Assembly (NCBI GenBank): GCA_000997475.1
Contig: LCEC01000001.1
Coordinates: 375 to 64,374, forward strand
Origin: Parcubacteria group bacterium GW2011_GWB1_42_6
GTDB lineage: Bacteria > Patescibacteriota > Minisyncoccia > Portnoybacterales > GWB1-42-6
Length of the DNA: 64,000 nucleotides
Direction: 5' to 3'
Part shown: in pieces, positions 1 to 36,251 of the stretch
How positions within the stretch are numbered: the stretch's first letter is position 1
How the letters are laid out: each line of letters starts with the position of its first letter
Program-made: the position numbers and the translations under genes
The notes under the pieces: model-generated
Database searches by the model: none
The model's input: only the letters and a program-made list of their open reading frames with translations
What the model was told of the DNA's origin: nothing

Positions 1-1
1 C

Positions 2-775
2 GTGATGCAGTCCGCTTTCGGGCAAACTTCCTCTTCGCTTTACTTCCAGCGCTTTGTCAAACACATTGAAGAAATTCTGACCGCGCCGCTTTCGTATTTG
101 GAGATGATTATCGGATATGTGGTGGCCGGAATTTTGCGGGGGCTTAAAGATGTTTTGCCCGAAATCGATGTTTTTGGAATCGAGCCGTCCATTGAAGAAT
201 CCGATTTTGCCAATCAAAAAGGCGTGAAAACCGAGACGACGCTTTTTGAAAATTTCAACGCCAAAAAATCGCGCCGGTTCGCGGCGATTTTTTGTATCCA
301 GAGCTTGAATCATTTGCTTGATCCCAAAAAGTTTTTCGATTGGTGCTTTGAAAATCTCGAGCCGGAGGGTTGTTTGGTTTTGGCGGTAAAAAATTTCCGC
401 GGCCAATGCCGCCGAGCCGGTTCCGTTTGGCGGGCCGCGCAAGTTGACCATCCTTTTATGTTTGTTCCCGAAACTCTCAAACTTTTTACGGAATCGGCCG
501 GATTCGAAATAATTTATTTTGACGTTGATGAATGGAAAAGCGCCAAAGAATTGCGGCTCCAGAAAGAAAAAGGAATTTCTTGCCACCACATAAGGCTTAT
601 CGCCAGAAAGAAAAAAGAAAAAGAATCCGTTTTGAACGTAACGGGCGGAAAAAACTGTCGGTCATCGCGTTTTTGGCTTTCTCCTTTGGCGCTCAAGATA
701 TTTTATTACCCGCTTTACGCCAATAAAACAAAATTTTTAAAAAAAATTTATGGCCGGATCAAAAATGGATTTTAA
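2..775 (+). CDS. Class I SAM-dependent methyltransferase, C-terminal part (5' end lies outside the window)
   Basis: ORF runs from the window edge. Methyltransferase-fold residues (LEPEGCLVLAV..) are present, and it sits directly upstream of the NeuB-like gene. Confidence 0.45.
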   Translation: MMQSAFGQTSSSLYFQRFVKHIEEILTAPLSYLEMIIGYVVAGILRGLKDVLPEIDVFGIEPSIEESDFANQKGVKTETTLFENFNAKKSRRFAAIFCIQSLNHLLDPKKFFDWCFENLEPEGCLVLAVKNFRGQCRRAGSVWRAAQVDHPFMFVPETLKLFTESAGFEIIYFDVDEWKSAKELRLQKEKGISCHHIRLIARKKKEKESVLNVTGGKNCRSSRFWLSPLALKIFYYPLYANKTKFLKKIYGRIKNGF

Positions 776-1832
776 TTTCAGCGGCAATCGCGTTTTTATC
801 ATCGCCGAAGCGGGCAAAAATTTCATCCAAACCCGGGAAGAAAAAACGTCCGAGGAATATTTGGCCAATGCCAAAGAATTGATCAGGCTGGCCTATGAAG
901 CCGGAGCCGACGCGGTGAAATTCCAAACCCACAATTTGGATGATGAGCAATTTGAAACGAATATAACTTCGCCCCATTTTTTAGGCAGCGATCGGTATAA
1001 TTGGATAAAACGCAATGATCGGGCGGCAACGATTGATTTTTGGAAAGAGTTAAAAGCTTTCGCGGATGAATTGGGCATAATATTTTTTTCCACTCCCATG
1101 AGCCGGGGAGCGGCCGTAAAATTGGAAGAAATCAATGTGCCGCTTTGGAAAGTCGGTTCGGGCGATATTCTTGATTTTGTGATGCTTGATTATTTGGCGC
1201 AAACGAAAAAACCGATAATTCTTTCTTCGGGGATGAGCACTTTGGAAGAAGTCGATCGGGCGGTGGAATTTTTGAAAAAAAGGGAATCCAAAATCGCGCT
1301 TTTGCATTGCGTTTCGCGTTATCCTTGTCCGCCCGACGAGCTCAATCTTAAGACTATAGAATTCTTTAAAAATCGCTACAAAGCGCCGATCGGTTTTTCG
1401 GATCACTCAATCGGCTTTGAAACGGTTTTGGCGGCCGTGGAGCTGGGAGCGGTTATAATAGAAAAGCATTTTTCATTGAGCCGCGATCTGTGGGGAGCGG
1501 ATCACAAAGTTTCCATGACTCCGGATGAATTTGAACAAATGGTCAAGGCCGCGCGCAAAACGCAGGCTTCCAAATTGACAAACTTGGGCTCAACGGATAA
1601 GCTTCTACAAGACGAAGAAGTCGTTTTCAGGCCGATTTTCCGCAAAATTTTGCGCGCCAGCCGCGATTTGAAAGAAGGGGAAATTTTGGAAAAAAACGAT
1701 ATCTACGCGATGAGGCCCCAAGAAGACGCCCAAGACGGGCTGCCTTCCGAAGATTACGAAAAAGTTTTGGGTAAAAAATTGAAAAGAGACATAAAAAAAT
1801 ACGATCCGATTTCTCGGGATGTTATTTTTTAA
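750..1832 (+). CDS. NeuB-family nonulosonic acid synthase (N-acetylneuraminate / legionaminic / pseudaminic acid synthase-like), copy 1
   Basis: N-terminal VFIIAEAGKNF..AVKFQTH motif typical of NeuB/PseI/LegI TIM barrel, with a C-terminal SAF-like segment; 360 aa. Confidence 0.8.
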   Translation: MAGSKMDFNFSGNRVFIIAEAGKNFIQTREEKTSEEYLANAKELIRLAYEAGADAVKFQTHNLDDEQFETNITSPHFLGSDRYNWIKRNDRAATIDFWKELKAFADELGIIFFSTPMSRGAAVKLEEINVPLWKVGSGDILDFVMLDYLAQTKKPIILSSGMSTLEEVDRAVEFLKKRESKIALLHCVSRYPCPPDELNLKTIEFFKNRYKAPIGFSDHSIGFETVLAAVELGAVIIEKHFSLSRDLWGADHKVSMTPDEFEQMVKAARKTQASKLTNLGSTDKLLQDEEVVFRPIFRKILRASRDLKEGEILEKNDIYAMRPQEDAQDGLPSEDYEKVLGKKLKRDIKKYDPISRDVIF

Positions 1833-3068
1833 TATTATGGAACAGCCAAAAAGAAAAAAAATATTGATTCCCATTTTAAACCGCGCCCACTACGGGCGTT
1901 TAAGGTCGGTTTTGAAAGCTGTCAACGACCATCCAAAACTCGAGCTGATGATTCTGGTCGCTTCTCCGCTGGCTTATAGCAGTTTTTTTTTAAATCTCAA
2001 ACACAGCCGGCCGGCTTTGAAAGGGCAGGCTTTGCGTTGGTATTTAAAAGCTCGTTTTCTCTCTTGGGCGGGAAAATTGAATCCCCGATTTTTAATCAAT
2101 AAAGATTTTTTGATAAAAAGCATTCTTGACGACGGGTTTCCCATTTACAGCCGCGTCCCTTTTTTCATAGACGGCGGATCATCCGTTTCCATGGCCAAAT
2201 CGGTCGGTTTCGGACTAATAAAACTGGCCGATGAATTTAACAGGCTGAAGCCCGATGCGGTTTTCGTGAATGCCGACAGATTTGAAATGATGGCGGTGGC
2301 GTTGGCGGAGCCGGTGACGTGAGCGGAACGATTGACGAAAGCGTCAGGCACGCCATTACGAAACTCGCTCAAATCCATTTCACTTCAACCCAAGCCAGCC
2401 GCAACCGCGTCATTCAAATGGGTGAAAACCCCCAAACCGTTTTCGCGGTCGGTTCGCCCTCAATCGATATAGTCAAAAATCTCGATTTGGACGCGCTTCC
2501 CAAAATTTTGCCGCCGGGTTTTCAAATCAAAGACCCCTATCTTTTGGTGGTTTTCCATCCGGTGGCTACGGAAAGTTCGCAAAAAAATATTGCTTTGACC
2601 GAAAATATTTTGAAAGCGGTTGAAAATATGGCGATGCCCGCTATTTTTTTGGGATCCAATATTGACGGCGGTTCCAAAGAAGTCGGTTTAATGGTGAAAA
2701 AATTTCTTTCCAAAAACTTGCCCTTCGTTCATTTTTACAAAACTTTGCCCCCGGATGATTTTTATCGTTTTTTGGCGGGCGCTTCCTGCGCCCTGGGCAA
2801 TTCGTCGAGCTTTATCAGGGAAGGCGCTTTTTTTGGCGCGCCGGCGGTTATTGTCGGATCGCGCCAGCAAAAAAGGGAGCGAGGAGAAAATATAAAAGAA
2901 GCCGGTTGCAAAGCCCAAGAAATAGAGAGAGCCGTGAAAGATCAGATCGCCCACGGACGCTTTGCTTCAAGTCTAATATTTGGTTCGGGGAAAGCCGGCG
3001 AACAAATCGCTCAAATTTTGGCCGAGACAAATCCTCCAATTCAGAAAACTTTTTTTGATCGGAGTTGA
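1819..3068 (+). pseudogene. UDP-N-acetylglucosamine 2-epimerase (hydrolysing) NeuC/LegG homolog, split by a frameshift plus a ~30-nt deletion near 2286-2322
   Basis: ORF 1819-2322 encodes the N-terminal half (..DAVFVNADRFEMMAVALA..). ORF frame +2, open from 2286, encodes the C-terminal half starting GGAGDVSGTIDESVRHAITKL, matching the conserved GGEVSGTIDE motif. About 11 residues of the active-site segment are missing between the two halves. Confidence 0.55.
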
Positions 3069-3117
3069 AATTCGCCTCATCCCCGGAGTTATTCGTAATT
3101 AACAGGAGAGAAGAAAC

Positions 3118-4572
3118 ATGAAAATTTTTTTAATCGGTTTTTCCAATGATATTTTCCGGGGCGTTGCCGAACAATTGGCCAAAGAACCGGATTTTGAAAT
3201 CGCTTATTGGACTTGCCGTTTTCCCGAAAAAGTTGACAGAACCAAGTTTCCCGAAGCGGTTATCCATTTTTCGGAAGACGCCATCAAGGGGATTCCGGCC
3301 CGCGATTTTAATGTTTTTGATTTTGAGCCTCTTGGCGAAGAATTGGCGGGCCAAATGTACGAATGCGAATCCCATGCCCTTACCATGATGAATCGAATGC
3401 ATTTTTCTTCTTCTTTGGGTGTTGATCAGCGAAAAAGAATATATTACGGCTATTTAAAATATTGGAACGGCATTTTGAAAAAATTTCAACCCGAAGCGAT
3501 TGTTTTTTCAACGATTCCCCATATGGGCTATGATTATGTTTTATACTGCTTGGCCAAAAATTTCGGCGTTAAAACTTTAATGTTTGATTTGACCAGAATT
3601 CCCGACAGGATTGTTCTGATGGATGATTTTAAAAAAGGGTTTCTTCCGTTAAAAAAATATTTGGCGGAAATGAAAAAAGACGTGAATTTGGCCGATCTGG
3701 ATGAAAAATTGCGAAATTATTATTCTCTTATGTCGGATAAAGAAAAAATTTATTATCCTCTTAATATCCCGACAGGATGGGAAAAGGCTTTAAAGAATAA
3801 AAGACGCGTAGTTCCTTCCGTTAAAATTAGATCTATTTTACGGGCCATAAAAAATAAAAATCTCGAAGAAAAATTGTTTGTCTTTCTTAATATTCTAAAA
3901 AGAAGAATATCGGTAAAAAAAATGGAAGAAGAATATTCGCGGCTGCAATTAAAACCCGATTTGAATAAAAAATTCATCTATTTTCCATTGCACGTCCAAC
4001 CTGAATGCACCACGTCTCCCTTGGGCGGAATTTTCGCCGATCAATTGCTCGTCGTTGAAATGTTGGCAAAAGCGCTGCCCGAGGATTGGCTGATTTATGT
4101 TAAGGAGCACAAATTTCAGCTGGTTAGAACGGCCGGGGGATACGCCAGATTCCCAAATTATTACAAATTTTTGACAAACCTCAAGAATGTCAATCTGGCG
4201 CCTATGAATTTTTCGAGCAATGAATTGATTTTAAAATCGCAGGCGGTAGCCACCATCACCGGCAGCGCCGGCTGGGAAGCTCTTTTTAGAGAGAAACCGG
4301 TTTTGGCGTTTGGTTATCCGGTTTATCAATTTTGCGACGGCGTTTTCCGCGTTTCAAACTTTAAAGAATGCCAAGAAGCGATTTTGGCCATTGTTAAAGG
4401 ATTCGCGCCTGACAAGCAAAAGGTGCTGAATTTTTTATCCGCTCTTAACGGAAGCGCGATAAAAGCCAATTTGAACTGCGGAGATTCCAAGGAAATTCGT
4501 CTTTCCGAAGACGCGAACATAAAAAATATTTCCGAAGCGATTCATAATCATTTATTTAAAAATCATGTTTAA
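3118..4572 (+). CDS. Capsule-polysaccharide biosynthesis family protein (KpsS/KpsC-like), putative nonulosonic-acid/Kdo-type transferase
   Basis: C-terminal motif TITGSAGWEALFREKPVLAFGYPVYQ resembles the Capsule_synth TVNSxxGxEAL..GKPV..G..Y signature; 484 aa, between NeuC-like and NeuB-like genes. Confidence 0.4.
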   Translation: MKIFLIGFSNDIFRGVAEQLAKEPDFEIAYWTCRFPEKVDRTKFPEAVIHFSEDAIKGIPARDFNVFDFEPLGEELAGQMYECESHALTMMNRMHFSSSLGVDQRKRIYYGYLKYWNGILKKFQPEAIVFSTIPHMGYDYVLYCLAKNFGVKTLMFDLTRIPDRIVLMDDFKKGFLPLKKYLAEMKKDVNLADLDEKLRNYYSLMSDKEKIYYPLNIPTGWEKALKNKRRVVPSVKIRSILRAIKNKNLEEKLFVFLNILKRRISVKKMEEEYSRLQLKPDLNKKFIYFPLHVQPECTTSPLGGIFADQLLVVEMLAKALPEDWLIYVKEHKFQLVRTAGGYARFPNYYKFLTNLKNVNLAPMNFSSNELILKSQAVATITGSAGWEALFREKPVLAFGYPVYQFCDGVFRVSNFKECQEAILAIVKGFAPDKQKVLNFLSALNGSAIKANLNCGDSKEIRLSEDANIKNISEAIHNHLFKNHV

Positions 4573-5578
4573 AAAAAATTCTGTTTTTATTATCGCCGAG
4601 GCGGGAATCAACCATAACGGTGATTTGGAAACCGCCGAGAAAATGGTTTTGGCCGCCAAAAAATGCGGCGCTGATGCCATAAAGTTTCAGTCATTGAAAG
4701 CCGAAGAGTTGATTATCGAAGAAGCGGGCAAGGCCGAACATATAAAAGGGAAGCAAAGCTTTTTCGAGATGATAAAAAGCTGGGAACTTTCCGAGAATGA
4801 TTATAAAAAGCTGGCTGATTTTGCCAAGAAAGAAGGAATAATTTTTTTCGCTTCGGTTTTCGGAAAGCAATCGCTTAATATTATGAAAAAAGCAGGAATG
4901 CCGCTTTATAAAATCGCTTCTTGCGATCTGAATAATCATTTTTTGCTTAAAGAAGTCGCTAAAACCAGAAAGCCGGTGATTATTTCCACGGGCATGGGCG
5001 ATATTAAAGAAATAAAAGAGGCGGTTAAAATTTTGGAAAAAGGGTCAAAAAAAATAGGCATTTTGCATTGCGTTTCTTTGTATCCGCCCGAGGCCCAAGA
5101 ATTGAATTTGCAGAGAATTCAATTGTTGGAAAAAATTTTTCCAAAATACGTTATTGGCTATTCGGATCACACCCTGGATATTTTGGCGCCCGCGGCGGCT
5201 GTCGCGCTGGGAGCGAATATAATCGAAAAGCATTTTACCTTGGATAAAAATATGCCCGGTCCCGATCAGCCAAGTTCCGCCGATCCCGCGGAATTTAAGA
5301 AAATGATTGAACAAATCAGATTTCTGGAAAAGGCGATTAACCGAGCCGAGAAAAACATTTTGCCCGGAAAACGCGAAAGCGAGATGAGGAAAATTTTTCG
5401 CCGAAGCTTGGTGGCCAACGAAGAGATTGCAGGGGGTTCTATAATTACGGCGGCCAAGCTTGGAATAAAAAGACCGGGAACAGGCATTCCTGCTTCACAA
5501 ATTGAGAAGGTAATCGGCAAAAAAGCCAAAAGAAATTTAGAAAAAAACACAATTTTGAAATTTGGCGATTTAATTTAG
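4565..5578 (+). CDS. NeuB-family nonulosonic acid synthase, copy 2
   Basis: VFIIAEAGINHNGDLETAEKMVLAAKKCGADAIKFQ motif and a C-terminal SAF-like domain; overlaps the upstream stop by 8 nt (translational coupling). Confidence 0.8.
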   Translation: MFKKNSVFIIAEAGINHNGDLETAEKMVLAAKKCGADAIKFQSLKAEELIIEEAGKAEHIKGKQSFFEMIKSWELSENDYKKLADFAKKEGIIFFASVFGKQSLNIMKKAGMPLYKIASCDLNNHFLLKEVAKTRKPVIISTGMGDIKEIKEAVKILEKGSKKIGILHCVSLYPPEAQELNLQRIQLLEKIFPKYVIGYSDHTLDILAPAAAVALGANIIEKHFTLDKNMPGPDQPSSADPAEFKKMIEQIRFLEKAINRAEKNILPGKRESEMRKIFRRSLVANEEIAGGSIITAAKLGIKRPGTGIPASQIEKVIGKKAKRNLEKNTILKFGDLI

Positions 5579-5579
5579 C

Positions 5580-6554
5580 ATGCAAATCGACGCGATTGGG
5601 AAAGTGAACAAAGATAATTATAAGCTGTTTCGGGACGGCAGTCTTTCGGGTTACGAAATTTATTTGGCCTCGGAAGACGATTTTGTTTTTTTGCCGGAGA
5701 TGTTGAAAGCTCTCAATATTGTTTCGGCGCATCAGCCCGGCCGGGGATTTAACTTGTGCCAAGAAGGAGAAATTGGTTGTTGGTCTTTTCAGACAATGGA
5801 AAAAATGCTGGCTGTTCTTAAGTCATGCGGCTACAAAGGGATCATAGTTATTCACGGCAATAATTTTGACGAATCGTCGCAAAATAGAGACGAATGCATG
5901 AAATTGCTGGCTGGGCGGCTGGATAAACTTAATAAAATTTCCGGCAAAATAAGAATCAGTCTGGAAACCGATGTTTTATTTTTTAATTTAATCGGGGCAA
6001 AAAGAGCTTTGCTCGCTTTGCCGGAAAATTTTAAGTTATTGACGAGTTTTATGAAATCTCCGCTTTTAATGACACTTGACTTCGAGCATATCTGGATAAC
6101 GTCGTTTTTTGCGGGATTTATCAAAGAACTGCCGGAATTTTATAAAGAATTCGATTTGATGGGCGATTCGGAAAAAGAGCTTGTCAAAAAGTCTTGGTTG
6201 AGCTATACCAAAGAGAAACTGAACGAGGCAGATCGGATAGTCGGGGAATCTCTAAAAAGATATTCAGAGACGAAAATTCCCATAATTAATTTTCATATCA
6301 ACGGCACGAATCCCGAAAAATATTGGTTCGATGAGAAAACTTTTTTGCCGCTTGAAGGCGAGCATCTTTGTTTGGGAGAGCCAGATGATAAATTGGATTA
6401 CGGTTTGATCGGCGAATATTTGCCAAGATTAACCCAGGAAGATTCGGCTAATCTTGTCATGGAAATCTGGCCTCGCGGAGCTTCCGATCGGGAATATTTT
6501 GAAAAATCTCTTGAATCGGCCGGATATCTTGAGAAAAAACTATGCCAAGCCTAA
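5580..6554 (+). CDS. Hypothetical protein, possibly a TIM-barrel sugar isomerase/epimerase-like
   Basis: 324-aa ORF within the cluster; weak resemblance only (IVVIHGNNF.., ISLETD). Confidence 0.3.
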   Translation: MQIDAIGKVNKDNYKLFRDGSLSGYEIYLASEDDFVFLPEMLKALNIVSAHQPGRGFNLCQEGEIGCWSFQTMEKMLAVLKSCGYKGIIVIHGNNFDESSQNRDECMKLLAGRLDKLNKISGKIRISLETDVLFFNLIGAKRALLALPENFKLLTSFMKSPLLMTLDFEHIWITSFFAGFIKELPEFYKEFDLMGDSEKELVKKSWLSYTKEKLNEADRIVGESLKRYSETKIPIINFHINGTNPEKYWFDEKTFLPLEGEHLCLGEPDDKLDYGLIGEYLPRLTQEDSANLVMEIWPRGASDREYFEKSLESAGYLEKKLCQA

Positions 6555-7168
6555 AACGTAAAAAAATAATAATAATTGGAGCAAGCGAACATGGAAAAAT
6601 CGCTCTTAACATTCTTCGTTATCAGAAAAACCTCGAGTTTGCCGGTTTTTTGGACGATAATAAAATGGCGGACAAAGAAGTAATCGGAAAGGTTTTTGAC
6701 TGGCCTAAATACGCCAAATATTTTTTTCATTTGGCTATTGGCGATAATTCGATTCGCGAAAAATTCTTTAAGATTTTAAATAAAGGCAATTGCCGTTTTA
6801 TTAATTTAATTCATCCCAAAGCTTTTATTGAAAAAGACGTTGTTTTGGGAGAAAGTGTTTTTGCGGGCGCGAACGCGTATATTAATATTGGCTCCAGAAT
6901 CGGCTCCGGAACAATCATAAATAATGGTTGCAATGTGGATCACCATAATATTATAGGTGATTTTTGCCATCTGGCCCCGGGAGTGATTACCGGCGGCGGA
7001 GTCAAAATCGCCGCCGGCGTTTTTGTCGGCCTTAACAGTGCGATTCGCGACCACATTAAAATAGGCGAAAACAGCTTTATCGGCATGGGGAGCGTAATAA
7101 CGAAAAATATTGAGAAAAATCTTTTAGTTTATAATAGACTGGAAATGAAAATCAAGAAACTTTCATGA
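6542..7168 (+). CDS. Hexapeptide-repeat sugar N-acetyltransferase (NeuD/PglD/LegH-like)
   Basis: N-terminal Rossmann-like IIIIGASEHGK, then left-handed beta-helix hexapeptide repeats (GANAYINIGSRIGSGTIINNGCNVDHH..). Confidence 0.75.
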   Translation: MPSLKRKKIIIIGASEHGKIALNILRYQKNLEFAGFLDDNKMADKEVIGKVFDWPKYAKYFFHLAIGDNSIREKFFKILNKGNCRFINLIHPKAFIEKDVVLGESVFAGANAYINIGSRIGSGTIINNGCNVDHHNIIGDFCHLAPGVITGGGVKIAAGVFVGLNSAIRDHIKIGENSFIGMGSVITKNIEKNLLVYNRLEMKIKKLS

Positions 7169-7186
7169 ACGATAAATAAAAAACCC

Positions 7187-7867
7187 ATGAAAAATATTTG
7201 CATTATTCCCGCCCGGGGCGGATCAAAAAGAATTCCCAAGAAGAATATTATTGATTTTCACGGCAAGCCGCTTATCGCCCACACCATTGAGGCGGCTGTC
7301 AATTCCAAGCTTTTCGGCAAGCATATTTATATCAGTTCGGATTTGGATGAAATTTTGGACGTGGCCGACAATTATTCTCAAGTTCAAAAACTCAAGCGCC
7401 CGGATGAAATTTCCGGGGATCGCGCGTCGCTCGAAGACGCCACTTTGCATCTGCTCGAATCGGTTGGAAAAGATTTTGATTATCTTTGCATGCTGATGCC
7501 CAGCTGTCCTTTGCGCAACGCGGAAGACGTCAAAAAGTCGTATAAAATTTTATTGGAGAAAAAAGGCGATTTTCTTATGAGTGTTATTGATTATTATTGG
7601 CTTTATCCTTTTTGGGCCATGCGGGAGAAAAAAGAAAACATTAAAATGTTTTTTGGCAAAAAATATTTGATTGATTCCAAAAAATTACCCAAGAATATTT
7701 ATTGCCCGTCGGGAGCAGTCCGCTGGGTCAGGGTGGAAAATTTTAAAAAAGAAAGAAAATACTATGGAAAAAATATCTTGAAATACGAGATACCTTTTGA
7801 GCGGGGAGCGGACATAGACAGTTTCGAAGATTTAGAACTGGCCAAAAAATTATACAAACTTTTATGA
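7187..7867 (+). CDS. CMP-nonulosonic acid synthetase (acylneuraminate cytidylyltransferase NeuA/LegF-like), copy 1
   Basis: ICIIPARGGSKRIPKKNI..GKPLIAHTIEAA motif of the CTP_transf_3 family. Confidence 0.8.
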   Translation: MKNICIIPARGGSKRIPKKNIIDFHGKPLIAHTIEAAVNSKLFGKHIYISSDLDEILDVADNYSQVQKLKRPDEISGDRASLEDATLHLLESVGKDFDYLCMLMPSCPLRNAEDVKKSYKILLEKKGDFLMSVIDYYWLYPFWAMREKKENIKMFFGKKYLIDSKKLPKNIYCPSGAVRWVRVENFKKERKYYGKNILKYEIPFERGADIDSFEDLELAKKLYKLL

Positions 7868-8985
7868 AAACGTATTCGATCGCCAAACCTCATATTGGCG
7901 AAAAAGAAATCAAAGCGGTTATCGAAGTTTTAAAAAGCGGCTCTTTGAGCCTGGGGCCGTATTATAAAAAATTTGAGGAAAGTTTCGCAAAAAAAATCGG
8001 CGTGAAATTCGCTTGCGCCGTTTCCAGCGGCACGGCGGGCTTGCATTTGGCAATGATCGCGGCGGGCGTCAGAGAGGGCGATGAGATAATTACTTCCCCC
8101 TTTTCTTTTATCGCTTCAGCTAATTGTATTTTATATGTTGGAGCCAGACCGGTTTTTGTTGATATTGATCCGGCCACTTGCAACATTGATCCCGAAAAGA
8201 TAGAAGAAAAAATCACCAAAAAAACCAAGGCGATTTTAGTCGCGCATATTTTCGGGCAAACCGCCGATATGGATCCGATCAGAGCTTTGGCGAAAAAATA
8301 CGATTTGAAAATAATTGAAGACGCTTGCGAATCTATTTTAGCCGAGTATAAAGGAAAGAAAGCCGGAACATTCGGGGAATCGGCCGTTTTCGCTTTTTAT
8401 CCCAACAAGCAGATGACGACGGGCGAAGGAGGAATGCTTGTGACGGATCAGGAAAAAATTTATAAAATGGCTTGCAGTTTGCGGAACCAGGGACGGTCGG
8501 AAAATATGCAATGGCTTGACCACCGACTTTTGGGATATAATTACCGGATGGATGAAATGAGCGCGGCATTGGGATTGATTCAGCTTCAAAAGATTGATTG
8601 GCTGATCGAGGAGCGCCGGAAAGTCGCCAAGCTCTATGAAAAACATCTTTTCGGACACAATGATCTGTTGCGGTTGCCGGTTGCCGTCGAAGGCAATACG
8701 CATACTTGGTTTGTTTACGCAGTCAAAATAAAAAACAAAAAGACGAACAGGAATGAAGTAATCGAAAAAATGAAAAATCGCGGCATAAGCGCAAAGCCTT
8801 ATCTTCCCTCAATTCATCTTTTTAAATTCTACCGGGAAAAATTTGGTTTTAAAAACGGCGATTTTCCGGTATCGGAAGAAATCAGCCGTTATTCCCTGGC
8901 TTTGCCTCTTTACATCGGGCTTAAAGAAAAGGACATAAAATACATTTCCGGTGAACTGGCCGGAATTTTAAAAAAAATCAAATGA
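7864..8985 (+). CDS. DegT/DnrJ/EryC1/StrS-family PLP-dependent sugar aminotransferase (LegC/PseC/PglE-like)
   Basis: 373 aa with a typical fold-type I aminotransferase pattern; start overlaps the upstream stop (ATGA). Confidence 0.85.
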   Translation: MKTYSIAKPHIGEKEIKAVIEVLKSGSLSLGPYYKKFEESFAKKIGVKFACAVSSGTAGLHLAMIAAGVREGDEIITSPFSFIASANCILYVGARPVFVDIDPATCNIDPEKIEEKITKKTKAILVAHIFGQTADMDPIRALAKKYDLKIIEDACESILAEYKGKKAGTFGESAVFAFYPNKQMTTGEGGMLVTDQEKIYKMACSLRNQGRSENMQWLDHRLLGYNYRMDEMSAALGLIQLQKIDWLIEERRKVAKLYEKHLFGHNDLLRLPVAVEGNTHTWFVYAVKIKNKKTNRNEVIEKMKNRGISAKPYLPSIHLFKFYREKFGFKNGDFPVSEEISRYSLALPLYIGLKEKDIKYISGELAGILKKIK

Positions 8986-9980
8986 CTCCGAATATATTCA
9001 AAAATAAAATAATTCTTGTGACGGGCGGAACCGGTTCAATCGGGTCTAAAATAGTGGAACGCCTCTTGGATCTTGAACCGCGCCAAATCCGGGTGCTTTC
9101 CAGGGATGAAAGCAAGCAATACGATCTGATTGAAAAATACGGCCACCCGAATAGTTTGAGAATGTTCATCGGCGACATCAGGGATCGGGAAAGATTGGAT
9201 TTGGCTTTTAAGGGTGTGGATATCGTTTTTCATGCCGCCGCTTTGAAGCATGTTCCTTTTTGCGAGTATAACCCCTTTGAGGCGGTAAAAACCAATATCG
9301 TCGGATCGCAGAATGTGATAGAAGCGGCTTTAAGGCATAATGTTTGGCGGGTGATCGGCATTTCAACGGACAAGGCGGCCAATCCCGTCAACATTTTAGG
9401 AACTTCAAAACTGATGATGGAAAAGCTTTTTATTAACGCGAACAATTATGTCGGGTCGGCTTCCACCAGATTTTCTTGCGTCAGATTCGGCAATGTCGCT
9501 TGGGCGAGGGGATCGGTTTTCCCTCTCTGGCAAAACCAGGTGAAAAAACATAAAAATATCGATGTAACCGACGGAGAAATGACCAGATTTTTAATGTCCA
9601 CCGTGGATGCGTGCGAACTTGTTTTGGATGCAACCAAATTGGCCAAGGGCGGAGAAATTTTTATTTTAAAAATGCCTTCCATAAAATTATTGGATTTGGC
9701 GGAATTGTTCATAAATAAGTATCATCCCCGGGAAAACATAAAAATCAAATTAATCGGTTTGAGACCCGGAGAAAAAAAACACGAAGATTTGCTTGATGCC
9801 AATCTGGAAAACGCCGAGATTCATGAGGGCAAAAAGATGTTTATAATCGTTCCGCAGATGGAAATTTACGGCTGGAAAGGAAAAAAAGCGGTTTATGCCG
9901 GTTTCAAGAAGATTTCAAAACAAGAAAAGTATTCTTCCGAGGATCGGATTAACAAAGAAAAAATAAAAGATATTATCTAA
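8982..9980 (+). CDS. UDP-N-acetylglucosamine 4,6-dehydratase (PseB/LegB/CapD-like short-chain dehydrogenase)
   Basis: IILVTGGTGSIGSKIV Rossmann motif and Polysacc_synt_2-like organisation. Confidence 0.8.
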   Translation: MTPNIFKNKIILVTGGTGSIGSKIVERLLDLEPRQIRVLSRDESKQYDLIEKYGHPNSLRMFIGDIRDRERLDLAFKGVDIVFHAAALKHVPFCEYNPFEAVKTNIVGSQNVIEAALRHNVWRVIGISTDKAANPVNILGTSKLMMEKLFINANNYVGSASTRFSCVRFGNVAWARGSVFPLWQNQVKKHKNIDVTDGEMTRFLMSTVDACELVLDATKLAKGGEIFILKMPSIKLLDLAELFINKYHPRENIKIKLIGLRPGEKKHEDLLDANLENAEIHEGKKMFIIVPQMEIYGWKGKKAVYAGFKKISKQEKYSSEDRINKEKIKDII

Positions 9981-9986
9981 AAAGCG

Positions 9987-11015
9987 ATGGAAATTTTTAT
10001 GACAAAAAAGTTTTTCAGCGAAAATGAAATCAGGCCCGAGAAATTCAAATCTCGAATGGAAAAGGTCAAGTCGCGGGACATAAAATATCTTTTCAGCAAA
10101 AAAAATCGGTTCGTCAAAGTCAATTGTCCGGCGTGCGGAAGGAATAATTTTAAAAAAGCTTTCAAGAAATACGGTTTCACTTTTGATTCATGCGGCGATT
10201 GCGGCACCGTCTTTATGAATCCGAGAGCCACGCCGGAAATATTGGACGATTTTTATTCCCAATCCGCGGTTTACGCGTATTGGAACAAAACAGTCTATCC
10301 GGCTTCGGAAGAATTGAGAAGAGAAAAAATCGTTAAGCCCAGGGTAAAAAGAATTCTCGAAATTTGCGATAAATTCAAGATTCCAAAAAAATGTTTGGTT
10401 GAAGCGGGGGCGGGGTTCGGAACTTTCTGCGACGAGGTTAAAAAGACTGGAGAATTCCAGAGAGTCGTAGCCATTGAGCCTTCGGCAACGGCGAAATCAT
10501 GCCGCCAGAAGGGGATAGAAACCATAGAAGATTTCATTGAAAATATAAAAACCTTGAAATTCGCTCCAAATGTCGTGGCTTCTTTTGAAGTTATAGAACA
10601 TCTTTTTTCTCCGGAAAATTTTTTAACGGGCTGCAAACGGCTAATGTCAAAAGAATCCATCATCGCGGTCAGTTGCCCCAATTACAATGGTTTTGACATT
10701 TTGACCTTGGGACTTGATTCGGAAAGCATAGATCACGAGCATATTAATCTTTTTAATCCGGATTCTCTGTCAAAGCTTTTCAGCCGCTGCGGTTTTGAAG
10801 TTTTGGAATGTTTTACTCCGGGCGAAATAGACGCCGATATCGTGAGAAATAAAATAATTTCCGGCGAATTTGAAATAAAGGACAAGCCGTTTTTAAAACT
10901 TTTATTGATTGACGAGTGGGACGAAATGGGGGCAAAATTTCAAAGTTTTCTCCAAAATAACAATCTTTCTTCCAATATGTGGCTGGTAGCCAAAAATAAG
11001 CAGTCAGCAATTTGA
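9987..11015 (+). CDS. SAM-dependent methyltransferase with N-terminal Cys4 zinc ribbon, paralog 1
   Basis: CPACG..(22)..CGDCG zinc ribbon, then class I MTase motif EAGAGFGTF; probable start at MTKKF (9999). Confidence 0.6.
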   Translation: MEIFMTKKFFSENEIRPEKFKSRMEKVKSRDIKYLFSKKNRFVKVNCPACGRNNFKKAFKKYGFTFDSCGDCGTVFMNPRATPEILDDFYSQSAVYAYWNKTVYPASEELRREKIVKPRVKRILEICDKFKIPKKCLVEAGAGFGTFCDEVKKTGEFQRVVAIEPSATAKSCRQKGIETIEDFIENIKTLKFAPNVVASFEVIEHLFSPENFLTGCKRLMSKESIIAVSCPNYNGFDILTLGLDSESIDHEHINLFNPDSLSKLFSRCGFEVLECFTPGEIDADIVRNKIISGEFEIKDKPFLKLLLIDEWDEMGAKFQSFLQNNNLSSNMWLVAKNKQSAI

Positions 11016-11016
11016 T

Positions 11017-11634
11017 ATGGGCGACAAGCTTTGCATTTTAGATTATGGTTCGGGGAACGTGGGGTCTGTTTTTAATATGTTCTCGACAATAATGGACAGA
11101 GTGGTTGTCTCTAATCGGCCGCCCGATTTGATTTCCTCAACTCATATAATATTGCCGGGCGTGGGCGCTTTTGGCTCTGCCATGGAGAAAATCAAAAAAA
11201 CTATTCCTTTGGACGTTTTGGAAGAAGAAGTTTTGCGAAAAGGCAAACCTTTTTTGGGAATATGCGTGGGTATGCAAGTATTGGCCGACAAAGGTTTTGA
11301 ATTTGGCGAATGCAAGGGATTGGGCTGGATTTCGGGAACGGTTGAAAAAATGGAAAGCGGAGATTTTTCCCTGCCGCACGTGGGCTGGAACAATATTGAA
11401 GTATCGAGGCAAACGAAATTATTTGAAGGCCTTTCCGATAATCAGGATTTTTATTTCGTCCATAGTTATGTTTTCAAGGAAAAAAATTCCAATGACGCGG
11501 CGGCCAAAACGGATTATGGCGAAAAGTTTACTTCCGTTGTCGCGAGAGACAATATTTTCGGTGTTCAATTTCATCCGGAAAAAAGCCAAAAAGCCGGCCG
11601 GATTATTTTAAAAAATTTTCTCGATATAAAATGA
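11017..11634 (+). CDS. HisH-like glutamine amidotransferase (WbuY-like)
   Basis: Class I GATase motifs ILDYGSGNVGSV, GVGAFG, HVGWN, QFHPEKS. Confidence 0.8.
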   Translation: MGDKLCILDYGSGNVGSVFNMFSTIMDRVVVSNRPPDLISSTHIILPGVGAFGSAMEKIKKTIPLDVLEEEVLRKGKPFLGICVGMQVLADKGFEFGECKGLGWISGTVEKMESGDFSLPHVGWNNIEVSRQTKLFEGLSDNQDFYFVHSYVFKEKNSNDAAAKTDYGEKFTSVVARDNIFGVQFHPEKSQKAGRIILKNFLDIK

Positions 11635-12437
11635 AAAAGAAACGCCTCATCCCCGTTCTTCTTTTAAAAAACGGCTGGCTCGTGCAAAGCAGGGAATTTA
11701 AATTTTACAGGAATTTGGGGAATCCGGTTGACGCGGTAAAAAGGCTAAACGAATGGGTTTCCGACGAACTGATTTATTTGAACATATCCAAGGAAGAAGT
11801 GTATGATATAAGAAGAGACGATCAAAATTATCCCAATCGTTGTTCGTTTGAAGAAATTATAGCGGATGTTTCTAAAGCGACTTTTATGCCAATGACGGTG
11901 GGCGGACGAATTGGAAACTTAAACAATATTGAAAAATTATTGTCCCTTGGAGCGGATAAAGTTTCCATTAATTCAAAAGCATTGGAAGACAAAAAATTTA
12001 TTGAGCAATCGGCCAGAGAATTCGGTTCCCAATGCGTGGTTGTTTCGATCGACGCCAAAATTATTAATGGAAAATATATTGTGATGTCGCAGGGAGGATC
12101 GAAAGAGACTCTTTACAATCCGGTTGAGTGGGCAAAAACCGTTGAATCGCTCGGAGCCGGAGAGATTCTTTTAAATTCGATTGATCGCGATGGCATGAAA
12201 AATGGCTACGATATTGATTTATTGGCTGCCGTTTCGGATGCTGTAAAAATTCCGGTAATTGCCTGCGGGGGCGTTGGCGAATGGGCGCATTTTGCCGAAG
12301 CGCTCCAAAAAACGAAGGTTGACGCGGTGGCCGCGGCGAATATTTTTCATTATATCGATCAGAGCGTTTATTTGGCCAAAAAATATCTTTATGAAGAGGG
12401 TTGCAATGTCAGACCTTGCGATCTGATGCCGGCCTGA
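11631..12437 (+). CDS. HisF-like cyclase subunit (WbuZ-like)
   Basis: IPVLLLKNG.. N-terminus and ..ACGGVG.. C-terminal phosphate-binding motif of HisF/HisA (beta/alpha)8 enzymes; overlaps the hisH-like stop. Confidence 0.8.
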   Translation: MKKKRLIPVLLLKNGWLVQSREFKFYRNLGNPVDAVKRLNEWVSDELIYLNISKEEVYDIRRDDQNYPNRCSFEEIIADVSKATFMPMTVGGRIGNLNNIEKLLSLGADKVSINSKALEDKKFIEQSAREFGSQCVVVSIDAKIINGKYIVMSQGGSKETLYNPVEWAKTVESLGAGEILLNSIDRDGMKNGYDIDLLAAVSDAVKIPVIACGGVGEWAHFAEALQKTKVDAVAAANIFHYIDQSVYLAKKYLYEEGCNVRPCDLMPA

Positions 12438-13471
12438 AAATTATTTTTGGCGGTCAATCCTATTTTCGGGATCCTCTTATGAAAGAAGAAGAAATCAGAC
12501 CCGGCAATCTAATGGCTGAAAATAGCAAACTGCACGCAAAAGATGTGGCCGAAATTTTGATTCGCCGAAAAGAATTTAAAAAAATAGCCTGTCCCGCTTG
12601 CGAATCAAAGAAGCAAAAATTCGCGTTTAAGAAAGATGGATTCAATTTCGCGGTTTGCTTGAAATGCGGCACTCTATTTATCAATCCAAGGCCTTCCCGC
12701 GAATTGTTGGCGGATTTTTATAAAAATTCGCGCAGCATCCGCCATTGGAGCGATAAAATTTTTCCGGCCAGCGAAAAACAAAGAAGATCGCAAATTTTTT
12801 ATCCGAGAGCGAAACGGATTATCGGTCTTTGCAAAAAATTTAAAATTAAAAACGGAGTTCTGGCGGATATCGGCGCCGGTTTCGGCACTTTCTGCCAAGA
12901 AGTCAAGAAATTAAATTTTTTTAAAGAAATTATTGCCATAGAGCCTTCAAAAAAATTAGCGCAGGTTTGCCGGCAAAAAGGTATTTTTGTGATTGAAGAA
13001 ATGGCCGAAAACGTAAATTTGGAAAAAATTGACGTGGTGACCAGTTTTGAATTGCTGGAACATCTTTTTTGGCCAAAAAACTTTCTTTGCGCTTTGTCCA
13101 AAAATATGTCCAAAAATTCCCTGTTTATTCTCACGACCCCAAACATAAGAGGATTTGATTTGCTTACTCTGGGAGAGCTTTCCAATAATATCAAGGGGCC
13201 GAACCATTTGAATTATTTTCATCCCGGTTCAATCAGCCTTCTATTGGAAGGTTGCGGATTTGAAGTGGTTGAGGTTCTGACGCCCGGAAAACTTGACGCG
13301 GAACTGGTAAGGAAAAAAATTTTACAGGACGATCCGGGCATCTTTTTAAATCGTCCTTTTATTCGGCACATCTTGGTGGACAAATGGAAATCCGTAGGAA
13401 ATTCTTTTCAGCATTTTTTGGCAGATAATAATTTATCTTCCCATTTATGGGTCGTGGCGAAGAAAAAATAA
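12401..13471 (+). CDS. SAM-dependent methyltransferase with N-terminal Cys4 zinc ribbon, paralog 2
   Basis: CPACE..CLKCG ribbon and DIGAGFGTF MTase motif; the same architecture as 9987-11015; probable start MKEEE at 12479. Confidence 0.6.
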   Translation: MQCQTLRSDAGLKIIFGGQSYFRDPLMKEEEIRPGNLMAENSKLHAKDVAEILIRRKEFKKIACPACESKKQKFAFKKDGFNFAVCLKCGTLFINPRPSRELLADFYKNSRSIRHWSDKIFPASEKQRRSQIFYPRAKRIIGLCKKFKIKNGVLADIGAGFGTFCQEVKKLNFFKEIIAIEPSKKLAQVCRQKGIFVIEEMAENVNLEKIDVVTSFELLEHLFWPKNFLCALSKNMSKNSLFILTTPNIRGFDLLTLGELSNNIKGPNHLNYFHPGSISLLLEGCGFEVVEVLTPGKLDAELVRKKILQDDPGIFLNRPFIRHILVDKWKSVGNSFQHFLADNNLSSHLWVVAKKK

Positions 13472-13475
13472 AAAT

Positions 13476-14690: not shown

Positions 14691-14700
14691 GATTAAAAAA

Positions 14701-16230: not shown

Positions 16231-16287
16231 GCATATTTTTTACAAAAAAGAGATCGGGCGAAATTAATTCGTAATTGGCTAGCAAAT

Positions 16288-17247
16288 ATGAAAATTCTAA
16301 ACGCAATCGGCAAAGAATTCAGCCTTTCGGCCAAACCTATTCTTGAAAAAGCGGGAGAAGTCGATTATTTGAATTTGGCGCAGGATGAATTTGAGGAAAA
16401 AATTGTCTCTTACGACGCTGCTGTTTTGGGATTAGGCTTGAATTTGAACGAAGAAGTTTTGCGGAAAGCCAAGAATCTGAAAGTGATTGCCACAGCCACC
16501 ACGGGTTTGGATCATATTGATTTAAAAACAGCCCAAGAAAAAGGAATCGAAGTTTTGAGCTTGAAAGGCGAAGAAGAATTTTTAAAAACCATCGCGGGAA
16601 CGGCCGAACTGGCTTTTGGATTGCTTATCGATCTTTCCAGAATGGTTTCAGCCGGCTTTGAATCGGTAAAAAAAGGCGAGTGGGATCGCGAAAAATTCAG
16701 GGGACATAATCTGCGAGGCAAAACTTTGGGAATTTTGGGTTTGGGCCGGCTTGGGCAAATGATGGCCAAATACGGTTTGGCTTTCGGTATGCGCGCAATC
16801 GCTTGCGATCCTTATGTTAAAAAGGAATCTTTCAGCGATTCCGGCTGCCGGCGCGTTGATTTTGAAACTTTGCTCAAAGAGAGCGATGCCGTTTCAATCC
16901 ACGTCCATTTGAGCGAAAAAACGGAAGGTCTTTTTTCAAAAGAATCTTTTGAAAAAATGAAAGACGGGGCGCTTTTAATAAACACCTCAAGGGGGAAAAT
17001 AGTAAATGAGGAAGATTTAATCCAATTTTTAAAAAACGGCAAGATTGGGGGATACGCGGCTGATGTATTGACAAATGAGCTTAAATTTGGTAAAAAGTTT
17101 GAAAGCGATCCGTTGGTTGAATGCGCCAAAAACGGCCAAAATGTCATAATCACTCCGCATATCGGCGGAATGACCTATGAATCGAGGGAAGCCACGGATA
17201 TGTTTATTTCTCAAAAATTGCTTGATTATGTCCAAAATAACGAATAA
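16288..17247 (+). CDS. D-isomer-specific 2-hydroxyacid dehydrogenase (NAD-binding)
   Basis: GKTLGILGLGRLGQ dinucleotide-binding motif and the catalytic-domain pattern of the D-2-hydroxyacid dehydrogenase family. Confidence 0.75.
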   Translation: MKILNAIGKEFSLSAKPILEKAGEVDYLNLAQDEFEEKIVSYDAAVLGLGLNLNEEVLRKAKNLKVIATATTGLDHIDLKTAQEKGIEVLSLKGEEEFLKTIAGTAELAFGLLIDLSRMVSAGFESVKKGEWDREKFRGHNLRGKTLGILGLGRLGQMMAKYGLAFGMRAIACDPYVKKESFSDSGCRRVDFETLLKESDAVSIHVHLSEKTEGLFSKESFEKMKDGALLINTSRGKIVNEEDLIQFLKNGKIGGYAADVLTNELKFGKKFESDPLVECAKNGQNVIITPHIGGMTYESREATDMFISQKLLDYVQNNE

Positions 17248-36204: not shown

Positions 36205-36251
36205 TCTCGGTGGTTGACCAAAATGGATTTTCCCGCTAAGCTTACAATAAT

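What the first reader, a model, noticed from the sequence alone, without database searches (positions are those of the whole stretch)
1819..3068. NeuC/LegG-like UDP-sugar 2-epimerase is split by a frameshift and small deletion at its catalytic motif
The N-terminal half ends at 2322 (..FEMMAVALAEPVT*). The C-terminal half continues in the +2 frame from 2286 as GGAGDVSGTIDES... Relative to the conserved AAxxA(S/T)YMNIP(V/I)AHI(H/Q)GGEVSGTIDE block, about 11 residues are missing. The only epimerase/hydrolase of the pathway therefore appears inactivated. Alternatively it could be expressed as two polypeptides, recoded, or be an assembly error. Any of these would alter what the cluster can make.
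Basis: seen in the sequence. Interest (0 to 1): 0.5.

Follow-up and report, generated by a model that had tools for sequence, protein, structure and literature searches.

The report
34-bp deletion breaks a sialic-acid-pathway epimerase gene
In this groundwater Parcubacteria genome bin, the single NeuC/LegG-type sugar epimerase gene of a sialic-acid-like sugar cluster has lost 34 bases, including essential catalytic codons; every sibling assembly from the same aquifer has the gene intact, so this is an ordinary strain-private pseudogene or, less likely, a local assembly error.

Summary
ORF 1819-2322 and the other-frame ORF ending at 3068 are the two parts of one NeuC/LegG/GNE-type hydrolysing 2-epimerase gene.

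The lesion is a single clean 34-bp deletion between window bases 2308 and 2309. It is not a frameshift plus a separate deletion. It removes codons A164-E175 (AAYLNIPIAHNE). These include the family-invariant N168, H173 and E175, which correspond to human GNE His132 and Glu134; E134A is inactive.

The window comes from MAG GW2011_GWB1_42_6, where the halves are annotated as KKS66070.1 and KKS66071.1. Fifteen sibling contigs from the same aquifer carry an intact 427-aa gene. Apart from the 34 bp, both halves are 100% identical in DNA to that allele.

Recoding and a functional split enzyme are rejected. There is no slippery site, and the essential residues are physically absent.

Real or artefact is unresolved. 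A Logan contig from SRR29904083 encodes the identical truncated 167-aa product, which argues that the junction exists in reads. However, other assemblies break or carry Ns at exactly this spot, just after a GGC-rich Illumina error hotspot. IDBA-UD bins are also known for local errors.

My estimate is about 60% a real, very recent strain-private knockout and about 33% an assembly artefact. Interest is low.

The parts
1819..2322 (+). 5' fragment of the NeuC/LegG/GNE-type hydrolysing 2-epimerase gene. Codons 1-163 are native (up to ...FEMMAVALA, including D153-R154, which correspond to GNE D112-R113). They are followed by the out-of-frame tail EPVT and a TGA stop at 2320-2322. Annotated at NCBI as KKS66070.1.
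   Evidence: The stretch is 100% nt-identical to the intact allele up to 2308.
2308..2309 (+). Deletion junction. In every intact sibling contig, 34 nt (CGGCATATTTAAACATTCCCATTGCTCACAATGA, codons A164-E175) lie between these two bases. There is no microhomology at the breakpoints.
2310..3068 (+). 3' fragment of the same gene in the other frame. Native codons run from A176 (GCC, 2310-2312) to the stop at 3066-3068 and include D184 (= GNE D143) and the GNSSS motif. The mechanical ORF starts at GTG 2319, which overlaps the TGA of the 5' fragment. Annotated at NCBI as KKS66071.1.
   Evidence: The stretch is 100% nt-identical to the intact allele.
2291..2308 (+). GGC-rich run (TGGCGGTGGCGTTGGCGG; the intact allele continues CGGC) directly upstream of the junction. 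This is a known trigger type for Illumina sequence-specific errors. Contigs from several other assemblies end or start within about 50 bp of it.
   Evidence: contig L048 ends with three lag-type miscalls right after it; PMC3141275.
750..1832 (+). NeuB-type nonulosonic acid synthase 1 (context). It would use the hexose released by the epimerase.
   Evidence: TIGR03569 5e-82, below the family cut-off; Pfam NeuB + SAF.
3118..9980 (+). Remainder of the core cluster (context): a Capsule_synth (PF05159) protein, NeuB-type synthase 2, an AP_endonuc_2-like protein, a NeuD/PglD-type acetyltransferase, a PseF-like cytidylyltransferase, a PseC/LegC-type aminotransferase and a PseB-like 4,6-dehydratase.

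Best explanation
The region is a pseudogene of a hydrolysing nucleotide-sugar 2-epimerase of the NeuC/SiaA/LegG/GNE family. It was made by one very recent 34-bp out-of-frame deletion in one strain variant of a Rifle-aquifer Parcubacteria population (MAG GW2011_GWB1_42_6).

Shown:
- The deletion removes codons A164-E175. These cover the last turn of a helix, a loop and a core beta-strand of the N-terminal Rossmann domain.
- The lost residues include the equivalents of GNE His132 and Glu134.
- Translation is shifted into a stop after 4 codons.

Inferred:
- The variant cannot convert the UDP/NDP-sugar (UDP-GlcNAc or NDP-diacetylbacillosamine) into the free 2-epimerised hexose that the two neighbouring NeuB-type synthases condense with PEP.
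- This strain therefore makes no sialic-acid-like (nonulosonic) sugar from this cluster, while co-occurring siblings with the intact gene do.
- It would then be a loss-of-function polymorphism in a surface-glycan locus, not a regulated or recoded gene.
For: Anatomy and lost residues:
- Exact anatomy of the deletion.
- Both halves have zero substitutions relative to the common intact allele over 1,250 bp, so the event is recent.
- The lost residues N168, H173 and E175 are invariant in 50 homologues of 52-87% identity.
- They map onto GNE His132/Glu134, and E134A is dead.
- In an AlphaFold2 model (pLDDT 90), residues 164-175 cover the end of helix 157-166 and strand 171-174.

Evidence that the junction exists in reads:
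- A k=31 Logan contig from run SRR29904083 (2,674 bp) encodes exactly the same 167-aa product, including the frameshifted EPVT* tail.
- The same contig carries a 324-aa methyltransferase rather than the 337-aa version of other assemblies. The window's own odd methyltransferase 5' end (1-126) suggests the same haplotype, but this link could not be confirmed.
- The break between the two Logan contigs about 30-50 bp after the GGC-rich run looks like real Illumina data.

Isolation of the lesion:
- Over the about 27 kb of window compared with contigs or scaffolds of sample SAMN03202996 (run SRR1658462), which is otherwise identical, this is the only indel.

Pathway context:
- The cluster holds two NeuB-type synthases, a PseB-like dehydratase, a PseC/LegC-like aminotransferase, a NeuD/PglD acetyltransferase and two cytidylyltransferases. 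There is no other epimerase or hydrolase.
- For the role of LegG in the pathway see PMC6137143.
Against: - No reads could be inspected, and the DNA of the SRR29904083 contigs was not retrievable. What that run is could not be established.
- The deleted allele is seen only in the NCBI MAG and that one Logan contig. Fifteen other contigs are intact.
- The left breakpoint (2308) coincides exactly with two things in sample SAMN03202996 / run SRR1658462, which is otherwise identical to the window: the end of a contig followed by 10 Ns, and the first miscalled base of contig L048. That is what an assembly artefact at a sequencing-error hotspot would look like.
- The breakpoints have no microhomology, which is unusual for spontaneous bacterial deletions.
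- Sister MAG GWC1_43_12 has a similar private 73-bp deletion exactly where another assembly's contig ends.
- The window also has two other private anomalies. One (43653-43688) lies about where scaffold_1027 of sample SAMN03202996 is inferred to end; at the other (1-126) that scaffold carries the canonical sequence instead.
- IDBA-UD assemblies are reported to be prone to local errors (PMC7111523).
Confidence: 0.6

Rival explanations
1. Local assembly or gap-closure error in the IDBA-UD-based MAG. In this reading the organism's gene is intact. Correct k-mers were lost just downstream of the GGC-rich run (an Illumina sequence-specific error hotspot at modest coverage), and the two flanking contigs were abutted without the missing 34 bp.
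For: - A scaffold of sample SAMN03202996, with 0 mismatches to the window, has NNNNNNNNNN starting exactly at 2308 and keeps 16 bp (CCATTGCTCACAATGA) that the window lacks.
- MEGAHIT contigs from SRR1658462 end 23 bp into the segment with three lag-type miscalls, and start 16 bp before its end.
- A JGI contig starts 29 bp before the segment's end.
- GGC runs trigger such errors (PMC3141275).
- The window has no SNPs but several private structural oddities, which is a typical local-error pattern. One (43653-43688) sits about where scaffold_1027 is inferred to end.
- The sister MAG shows the same kind of private 73-bp deletion at another assembly's contig end.
- Local errors are reported as prominent in IDBA-UD assemblies (PMC7111523).
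- There is no microhomology at the junction, and no further decay of the gene.
Against: - A de Bruijn (k=31) Logan contig from SRR29904083 encodes the identical frameshifted 167-aa product. That requires junction-spanning k-mers in reads.
- The same contig carries a 324-aa methyltransferase instead of the canonical 337-aa one, as the window's odd 5' end would predict.
- Simply removing the Ns from the other scaffold would not give the window's sequence, because 16 bp more are missing.
Confidence: 0.33
2. The gene is still functional, either through programmed ribosomal frameshifting or as a split enzyme. In the split version the C-terminal ORF is translated from GTG 2319, coupled to the overlapping TGA, with the GGAG created by the junction 8 nt upstream.
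For: The GTG start at 2319 overlaps the TGA stop at 2320-2322 (GTGA), and GGAG sits at 2307-2310. Both fragments are undecayed.
Against: - The 34 missing bases encode the invariant N168, H173 and E175 and a core beta-strand, and no translation trick restores them.
- GNE E134A is inactive.
- There is no X XXY YYZ slippery heptamer in the overlap.
- Only 7 of 33 genes in the window have a Shine-Dalgarno-like motif, so the GGAG carries little weight.
- All 120 best homologues shown (of 5,589 hits), including those 99.7-100% identical in DNA, are single ORFs of 363-437 aa.
Confidence: 0.02
3. The deleted and intact alleles are a reversible on/off (phase-variation) switch for the surface sugar.
For: Both alleles may occur in the same aquifer population. 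Glycan loci are common targets of on/off switching; in Neisseria meningitidis, siaA is reversibly inactivated by IS1301 (PMC2413038).
Against: The junction has no simple-sequence repeat, homopolymer, invertible element or IS. A 34-bp loss without repeats cannot revert except by recombination with an intact copy.
Confidence: 0.03

Closest known systems
Hydrolysing UDP-GlcNAc 2-epimerases: NeuC/SiaA and the human GNE epimerase domain (PDB 4ZHT)
   Same: - Best solved-structure match is 4ZHT (E = 2e-54); the NCBIfam match is TIGR03568 NeuC_NnaA.
- The intact sibling protein has the DRF motif (D153-R154), H173, E175, D184 and the GNSSS motif.
- These correspond to GNE D112-R113, H132, E134, D143 and S301-S302.
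   Different: - In the window the gene is broken, and the H132/E134 equivalents are deleted.
- The Parcubacteria proteins carry an extra helical insert of about 45 aa (roughly residues 56-104) that is absent from GNE and LegG.
- The motif reads HNEAGD instead of HIEGGE.
LegG, the hydrolysing NDP-N,N'-diacetylbacillosamine 2-epimerase of legionaminic acid synthesis (PDB 5XVS/5ZLR)
   Same: - Second-best structural relative (E = 3e-47).
- The gene neighbourhood follows the Leg pathway logic of LegB, LegC, LegH, LegG, LegI and LegF: a 4,6-dehydratase, an aminotransferase, a NeuD/PglD-type acetyltransferase, NeuB-type synthases and cytidylyltransferases (PMC6137143).
   Different: - Substrate specificity was not determined. 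The dehydratase and aminotransferase score below the PseB, PseC and LegC cut-offs.
- The cluster has two synthases and two cytidylyltransferases.
- It also has WbuX/Y/Z-like amidotransferase genes and a B12-radical SAM gene.
Natural inactivation of siaA (the NeuC homologue) in Neisseria meningitidis by IS1301
   Same: The same enzyme step is knocked out in a subpopulation, which switches off sialic-acid-containing surface structures (PMC2413038).
   Different: That case is a reversible IS insertion. Here it is an irreversible 34-bp deletion with no mobile element, and any phenotype is only inferred.
Local assembly errors in IDBA-UD metagenome scaffolds (Chen et al. 2020, Genome Res; PMC7111523)
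   Same: A small private discrepancy inside a gene of an IDBA-UD-era MAG, sitting at a site where other assemblies break or carry Ns.
   Different: Such errors by definition lack support from any read. Here an independent k-mer assembly reproduces the junction.

Membership tests
Hydrolysing nucleotide-sugar 2-epimerase (NeuC/SiaA/LegG/GNE; Pfam PF02350, TIGR03568) | Sequence match to the Epimerase_2 / NeuC_NnaA profile across both Rossmann domains | tested here: met
   The N-half matches TIGR03568 positions 48-112 (72 bits). The C-half matches 125-365 (213 bits). Each is below the 235.9-bit cut-off on its own, and only positions 113-124 are missing. The intact sibling P0001 matches 4ZHT at 2e-54.
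Hydrolysing nucleotide-sugar 2-epimerase (NeuC/SiaA/LegG/GNE; Pfam PF02350, TIGR03568) | Complete set of essential acidic residues and His (GNE D112, H132, E134, D143) | tested here: not met
   D153 and D184 are present. The codons for H173 and E175 lie inside the deleted 34 bp. E134A is inactive and His132 is strictly conserved (PMC4793188).
Hydrolysing nucleotide-sugar 2-epimerase (NeuC/SiaA/LegG/GNE; Pfam PF02350, TIGR03568) | Markers of the hydrolysing subclass (GNE Arg113 and Ser302) | tested here: met
   R154 follows D153 (DRF), and the N339-S340-S341-S342 motif aligns to GNE GNSS(C). All are invariant in 50 homologues.
Hydrolysing nucleotide-sugar 2-epimerase (NeuC/SiaA/LegG/GNE; Pfam PF02350, TIGR03568) | One continuous reading frame of about 365-430 codons | tested here: not met
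   A stop falls at 2320-2322 after 167 codons, and the remainder is in another frame. Siblings have 427 codons.
Hydrolysing nucleotide-sugar 2-epimerase (NeuC/SiaA/LegG/GNE; Pfam PF02350, TIGR03568) | Catalytic activity (release of ManNAc or 2,4-diacetamido-2,4,6-trideoxymannose plus NDP) | not testable with these tools
   Needs an enzyme assay of the intact sibling protein and of the two fragments.
Programmed ribosomal frameshift / recoded gene | A slippery site in the frame overlap, and conservation of the frameshift in relatives | tested here: not met
   There is no X XXY YYZ heptamer near 2286-2322. All relatives have an uninterrupted ORF.
Phase-variable contingency locus | A simple-sequence repeat, invertible segment or IS at the lesion that allows reversion | tested here: not met
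   The junction GGCGG|AGCCGG has no repeat tract and no microhomology, and the deleted 34 bp is unique sequence.
Local assembly error (IDBA-UD type) | Consensus at the site lacks perfect support by any read | tested here: inconclusive
   Reads were not available. Indirect evidence for an error: Ns or contig ends at the same site in other assemblies. Indirect evidence against: the Logan k=31 contig from SRR29904083 encodes the identical frameshifted product.

The most novel reading that the evidence does not exclude
The deletion is real and is one of several independent, very recent knockouts scattered over this one surface-sugar cluster in an otherwise almost clonal Parcubacteria population.

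The candidate knockouts are:
- 34 bp lost in the epimerase (this MAG).
- 73 bp lost in the AP_endonuc_2-like gene (sister MAG).
- 2 bp lost in the methyltransferase (JGI 3300025030).
- A replaced methyltransferase 5' end (this MAG).

This would point to recurrent selection, for example by phages or in host attachment, for loss or variation of a sialic-acid-like glycan in an ultra-small episymbiotic bacterium.
Probability: 0.15. Interest if true: 0.4.

Novelty: new member of a known kind. Interest (0 to 1): 0.12.

Why it matters
Practical value is modest.

- The two GenBank entries KKS66070.1 and KKS66071.1 are fragments of one broken gene and should not be used as family members or for metabolic inference.
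- The nonulosonic-acid capacity of bin GW2011_GWB1_42_6 should be scored as absent or uncertain. The species population clearly has the intact pathway.
- The case shows how a GGC-rich Illumina error hotspot can produce contig breaks, Ns and possibly false pseudogenes in MAGs.
- If the deletion is real, it is a small example of strain-level loss-of-function variation in a surface-glycan locus of a candidate-phyla-radiation bacterium. That phenomenon is well known in other bacteria.

Tried and rejected
- Exact-pattern scans of genome contigs and metagenome contigs with the 25-nt left flank gave 0 hits. A JGI contig fetched later contains that 25-mer, so these collections do not cover the relevant records and the zeros carry no information.
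- I could not retrieve the NCBI source contig itself or the DNA of the two SRR29904083 Logan contigs ('sample's file is too large').
- I tried to recover the 324-aa methyltransferase variant, to prove that the Logan contig shares the window's 5' haplotype. The homologue search and the cluster listing returned only the canonical 337/330-aa forms, so the link rests on gene length alone.
- A literature search for SRR29904083, and for nonulosonic acids in the candidate phyla radiation, found nothing.
- I considered an IS insertion with a 5-bp CCATT target duplication to explain contigs L048 and L026 overlapping by 5 bp. I rejected it because neither contig end carries any foreign sequence, and L048's tail shows lag-type miscalls instead.
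- I considered hairpin- or microhomology-mediated deletion. Only a 4-bp CGGC/GCCG complement is present, and there is no microhomology.
- I considered the junction-created GGAG as a ribosome-binding site. It carries little weight because only 7 of 33 genes here have such a motif.
- No fold search was run. The sequence match to solved structures was already unambiguous.
Full report
**What is in the sequence**

ORF 1819-2322 (167 aa) ends ...DRFEMMAVALAEPVT*. A second frame reads NDGGGVGGAGDVSGTIDES... from 2286 and runs to a stop at 3068. Its first mechanical start is GTG 2319, which overlaps the TGA of the first ORF.

The first piece matches Pfam Epimerase_2 positions 27-86 and TIGR03568 (NeuC_NnaA) positions 48-112. 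The second matches Epimerase_2 99-346 and TIGR03568 125-365 (E = 6e-63). About twelve profile positions fall between them. A tblastn of both halves against all six frames of the window finds no second copy.

**What exactly happened**

A search with the two halves joined found 5,589 homologues. The best, P0001, is a 427-aa protein with 96% identity over 100% of the query, twelve residues longer than the joined query. Its motif reads ...FEMMAVALAAAYLNIPIAHNEAGDVSGTIDES....

DNA alignment with its contig and many others shows a single clean difference. Between window bases 2308 and 2309, 34 nt are missing: CGGCATATTTAAACATTCCCATTGCTCACAATGA. This is 11 1/3 codons, so one event explains both the lost residues (A164-E175) and the frame shift. 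The breakpoints share no microhomology.

Apart from the 34 nt, both halves of the window gene are 100% identical at the nucleotide level to the common intact allele over 1,250 bp.

**Where the window comes from**

An exact-sequence look-up identifies the two halves as KKS66070.1 and KKS66071.1. They belong to 'Parcubacteria group bacterium GW2011_GWB1_42_6', on a contig of 64,708 bp. The intact 427-aa form is KKS92287.1 of the sister bin GW2011_GWC1_43_12.

I retrieved 15 distinct contigs with the 34 bp present:
- ENA MEGAHIT k141 and k127 assemblies;
- 'ANAN16-1' scaffolds;
- JGI 3300025012 and 3300025121;
- Logan SRR3309152;
- NCBI LCFJ01000006.1.

All are from the same groundwater project and are 99.7-100% identical in the flanks. 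Some of these assemblies probably reuse the same libraries, so the number of independent samples is lower than 15.

**What the lost segment does**

In an alignment of 50 homologues (52-87% identity), N168, H173 and E175 are invariant, and A164, Y166, P170 and A172 are nearly so.

Against solved structures the best match is the human GNE epimerase domain 4ZHT (2e-54), followed by the legionaminic-acid enzyme LegG, 5XVS (3e-47). In the 4ZHT alignment:
- D153-R154 correspond to GNE D112-R113;
- H173 corresponds to H132;
- E175 corresponds to E134;
- D184 corresponds to D143.

The GNE structure paper reports that E134A and D143A are completely inactive. It also reports that His132 is one of the few residues strictly conserved in both hydrolysing and non-hydrolysing enzymes (PMC4793188).

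An AlphaFold2 model of the intact sibling (mean pLDDT 90) places residues 164-175 at the end of helix 157-166, the following loop and the core strand 171-174.

The sequence as given therefore cannot encode an active enzyme, in one piece or in two. Recoding is excluded:
- the missing bases cannot be recovered by ribosome slippage;
- the frame overlap has no X XXY YYZ heptamer;
- every relative has one ORF.

The junction happens to create GGAG 8 nt before GTG 2319. However, only 7 of 33 genes in the window have a Shine-Dalgarno-like motif.

**Context**

The gene sits in a nonulosonic-acid cluster. In order, the genes are:
- a methyltransferase;
- NeuB-type synthase 1;
- the epimerase;
- a Capsule_synth (PF05159) protein;
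- NeuB-type synthase 2;
- an AP_endonuc_2-like protein;
- a NeuD/PglD-type acetyltransferase;
- a PseF-like cytidylyltransferase;
- a PseC/LegC-like aminotransferase;
- a PseB-like 4,6-dehydratase;
- a further methyltransferase;
- WbuY/WbuZ/WbuX-like amidotransferase genes;
- a B12-radical SAM protein;
- a 2-hydroxyacid dehydrogenase;
- a second cytidylyltransferase.

This follows the logic of the legionaminic-acid pathway, in which LegG, a NeuC homologue, releases the 2-epimerised hexose for the synthase (PMC6137143). Most of the equivalog scores are below cut-off, so the exact sugar is not assigned. No PseG-type hydrolase or second epimerase is in the window.

**Real deletion or artefact?**

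This is the crux and it is not settled.

Evidence for a real allele:
- A Logan contig from run SRR29904083 (2,674 bp, k=31 de Bruijn assembly) encodes exactly the same 167-aa product, including the frameshifted EPVT* tail. That requires junction-spanning k-mers in reads.
- The same contig carries a 324-aa methyltransferase instead of the canonical 337-aa one. This fits the window's own unusual methyltransferase 5' end (window 1-126 matches none of the sibling contigs).
- A second Logan contig of that run starts about 32 bp after the junction, and the first ends about 50 bp after it. This is the same kind of break seen in real Illumina assemblies at this spot.

Evidence for an artefact:
- A scaffold from sample SAMN03202996 has 0 mismatches to the window across window 127-7072 and 1 mismatch with no gaps over a further 20,960 bp. 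It has ten Ns starting exactly at 2308 and keeps 16 bp of the segment that the window lacks.
- MEGAHIT contigs of SRR1658462 behave similarly. One ends 23 bp into the segment with three miscalls of the 'repeat the previous base' kind (GGGCATATTTAAAACTTCCCATT for CGGCATATTTAAACATTCCCATT). The other starts 16 bp before the segment's end.
- A JGI contig starts 29 bp before the segment's end.
- The segment lies directly downstream of TGGCGGTGGCGTTGGCGGCGGC. GGC sequences are one of the two main triggers of Illumina sequence-specific lagging errors (PMC3141275).
- The left breakpoint of the deletion thus coincides with the onset of a sequencing-error hotspot.
- The sister bin has a private 73-bp deletion (window 5815-5887) exactly where a JGI contig ends.
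- The window has another private replacement at 43653-43688, about where the SAMN03202996 scaffold is inferred to end.
- Local assembly errors are described as prominent in IDBA-UD assemblies (PMC7111523).

I weigh the Logan contig most heavily, because a k-mer assembly cannot invent a junction. My estimates are about 0.60 for a real, very recent, strain-private deletion, about 0.33 for an assembly error, and the rest for other readings.

**Comparison with what is known, and verdict**

The protein family, the pathway step and the idea of knocking out this step in a subpopulation are all known. An example is the reversible IS1301 inactivation of siaA in Neisseria meningitidis (PMC2413038).

The window's gene is a remnant of a family member and fails the tests for a functional member: two essential residues are gone and there is no continuous ORF.

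Whether it is real or not, this is an ordinary finding. It is either a private pseudogene in one genome bin or a local error in that bin. Its main use is as an annotation caveat. Interest is 0.12.

The most novel reading still open is recurrent recent knockouts across this glycan cluster in a near-clonal CPR population. The candidates are the 34 bp here, the 73 bp in the sister bin, a 2-bp deletion in the methyltransferase of JGI 3300025030, and the replaced methyltransferase 5' end. I give that reading about 0.15.

Noticed in passing
window 1-126 (5' part of ORF 2-775): The first 126 bases do not match any of more than 20 sibling contigs. Those all carry a canonical 337-aa methyltransferase with the VLDVGSSTGG SAM-binding motif. 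The window's version (…LEMIIGYVVAG…) lacks that motif. From base 127 onward identity is 100%. This could be a recombinant allele, a gene fusion or a chimeric contig end. The Logan SRR29904083 contig has a 324-aa methyltransferase, which suggests the same variant.
   Followed up: partly
window 43653-43688 (upstream of efp, ORF 43086-43727, minus strand): In the window, 36 bp (GAGTTTGCGCTCCCCCTCTTCCTTGCGCGCTTCATA) replace 99 bp that three other assemblies share (L037, L038, L039). By its length, scaffold_1027 of sample SAMN03202996 is inferred to end about here. This is either a strain-specific replacement or a local assembly error.
   Followed up: partly
window 5815-5887, inside ORF 5580-6554; L007/L022 = NCBI LCFJ01000006.1: Sister MAG GW2011_GWC1_43_12 lacks 73 bp here, which splits its AP_endonuc_2-like gene into 82-aa and 218-aa pieces. 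JGI contig Ga0209727_1006683 ends exactly at window 5814. This is the same pattern as the epimerase deletion, in the neighbouring gene of the other bin.
   Followed up: partly
L049 (JGI 3300025030 Ga0209518_1005999), positions about 1150: A 2-bp (CG) deletion in the cluster's methyltransferase gene splits it into 227-aa and 105-aa ORFs, with no Ns involved. This is a third small disruptive indel in the same cluster, in a third assembly.
   Followed up: no
window 36188-36228, intergenic, upstream of secD (36252-37700): Contigs L037 and L040 carry about 211 bp where the window and L038 have 41 bp. The motif AGAGAAAAACGTATTTTTACA recurs at the boundary. Independent assemblies support each form, so this looks like a genuine insertion/deletion polymorphism, possibly a small mobile element.
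   Followed up: no
L048 (ERZ909588, SRR1658462 k127_40707), last 23 bases; window 2291-2308: The contig tail shows three 'previous-base' miscalls right after the GGC-rich run TGGCGGTGGCGTTGGCGGCGGC. This is a textbook Illumina sequence-specific error site, and it breaks several assemblies inside this gene.
   Followed up: yes
residues about 56-104 of the intact protein (window about 1984-2130): The Parcubacteria/Patescibacteria NeuC-like proteins (about 415-430 aa) carry an insert of about 45 residues, predicted as four helices, in the N-terminal domain. The insert is absent from GNE and LegG, and it is conserved across the 50 homologues aligned.
   Followed up: partly
L010, L011, L042, L049, upstream of the methyltransferase gene: Some sibling strains have an IS200/IS605-type Y1 transposase directly upstream of the cluster. 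Others (L004/L014, L002) have three CDP-glycerol glycerophosphotransferase genes there. The cluster's left border therefore varies among strains.
   Followed up: no
window 750-17962: The cluster is unusually elaborate. It has two NeuB-type synthases, two cytidylyltransferases, WbuX/Y/Z-like acetamidino-forming genes, three methyltransferases and a B12-binding radical SAM enzyme. This suggests a heavily modified nonulosonic acid, or two of them, in a candidate-phyla-radiation bacterium. I found no paper on such sugars in this group.
   Followed up: partly
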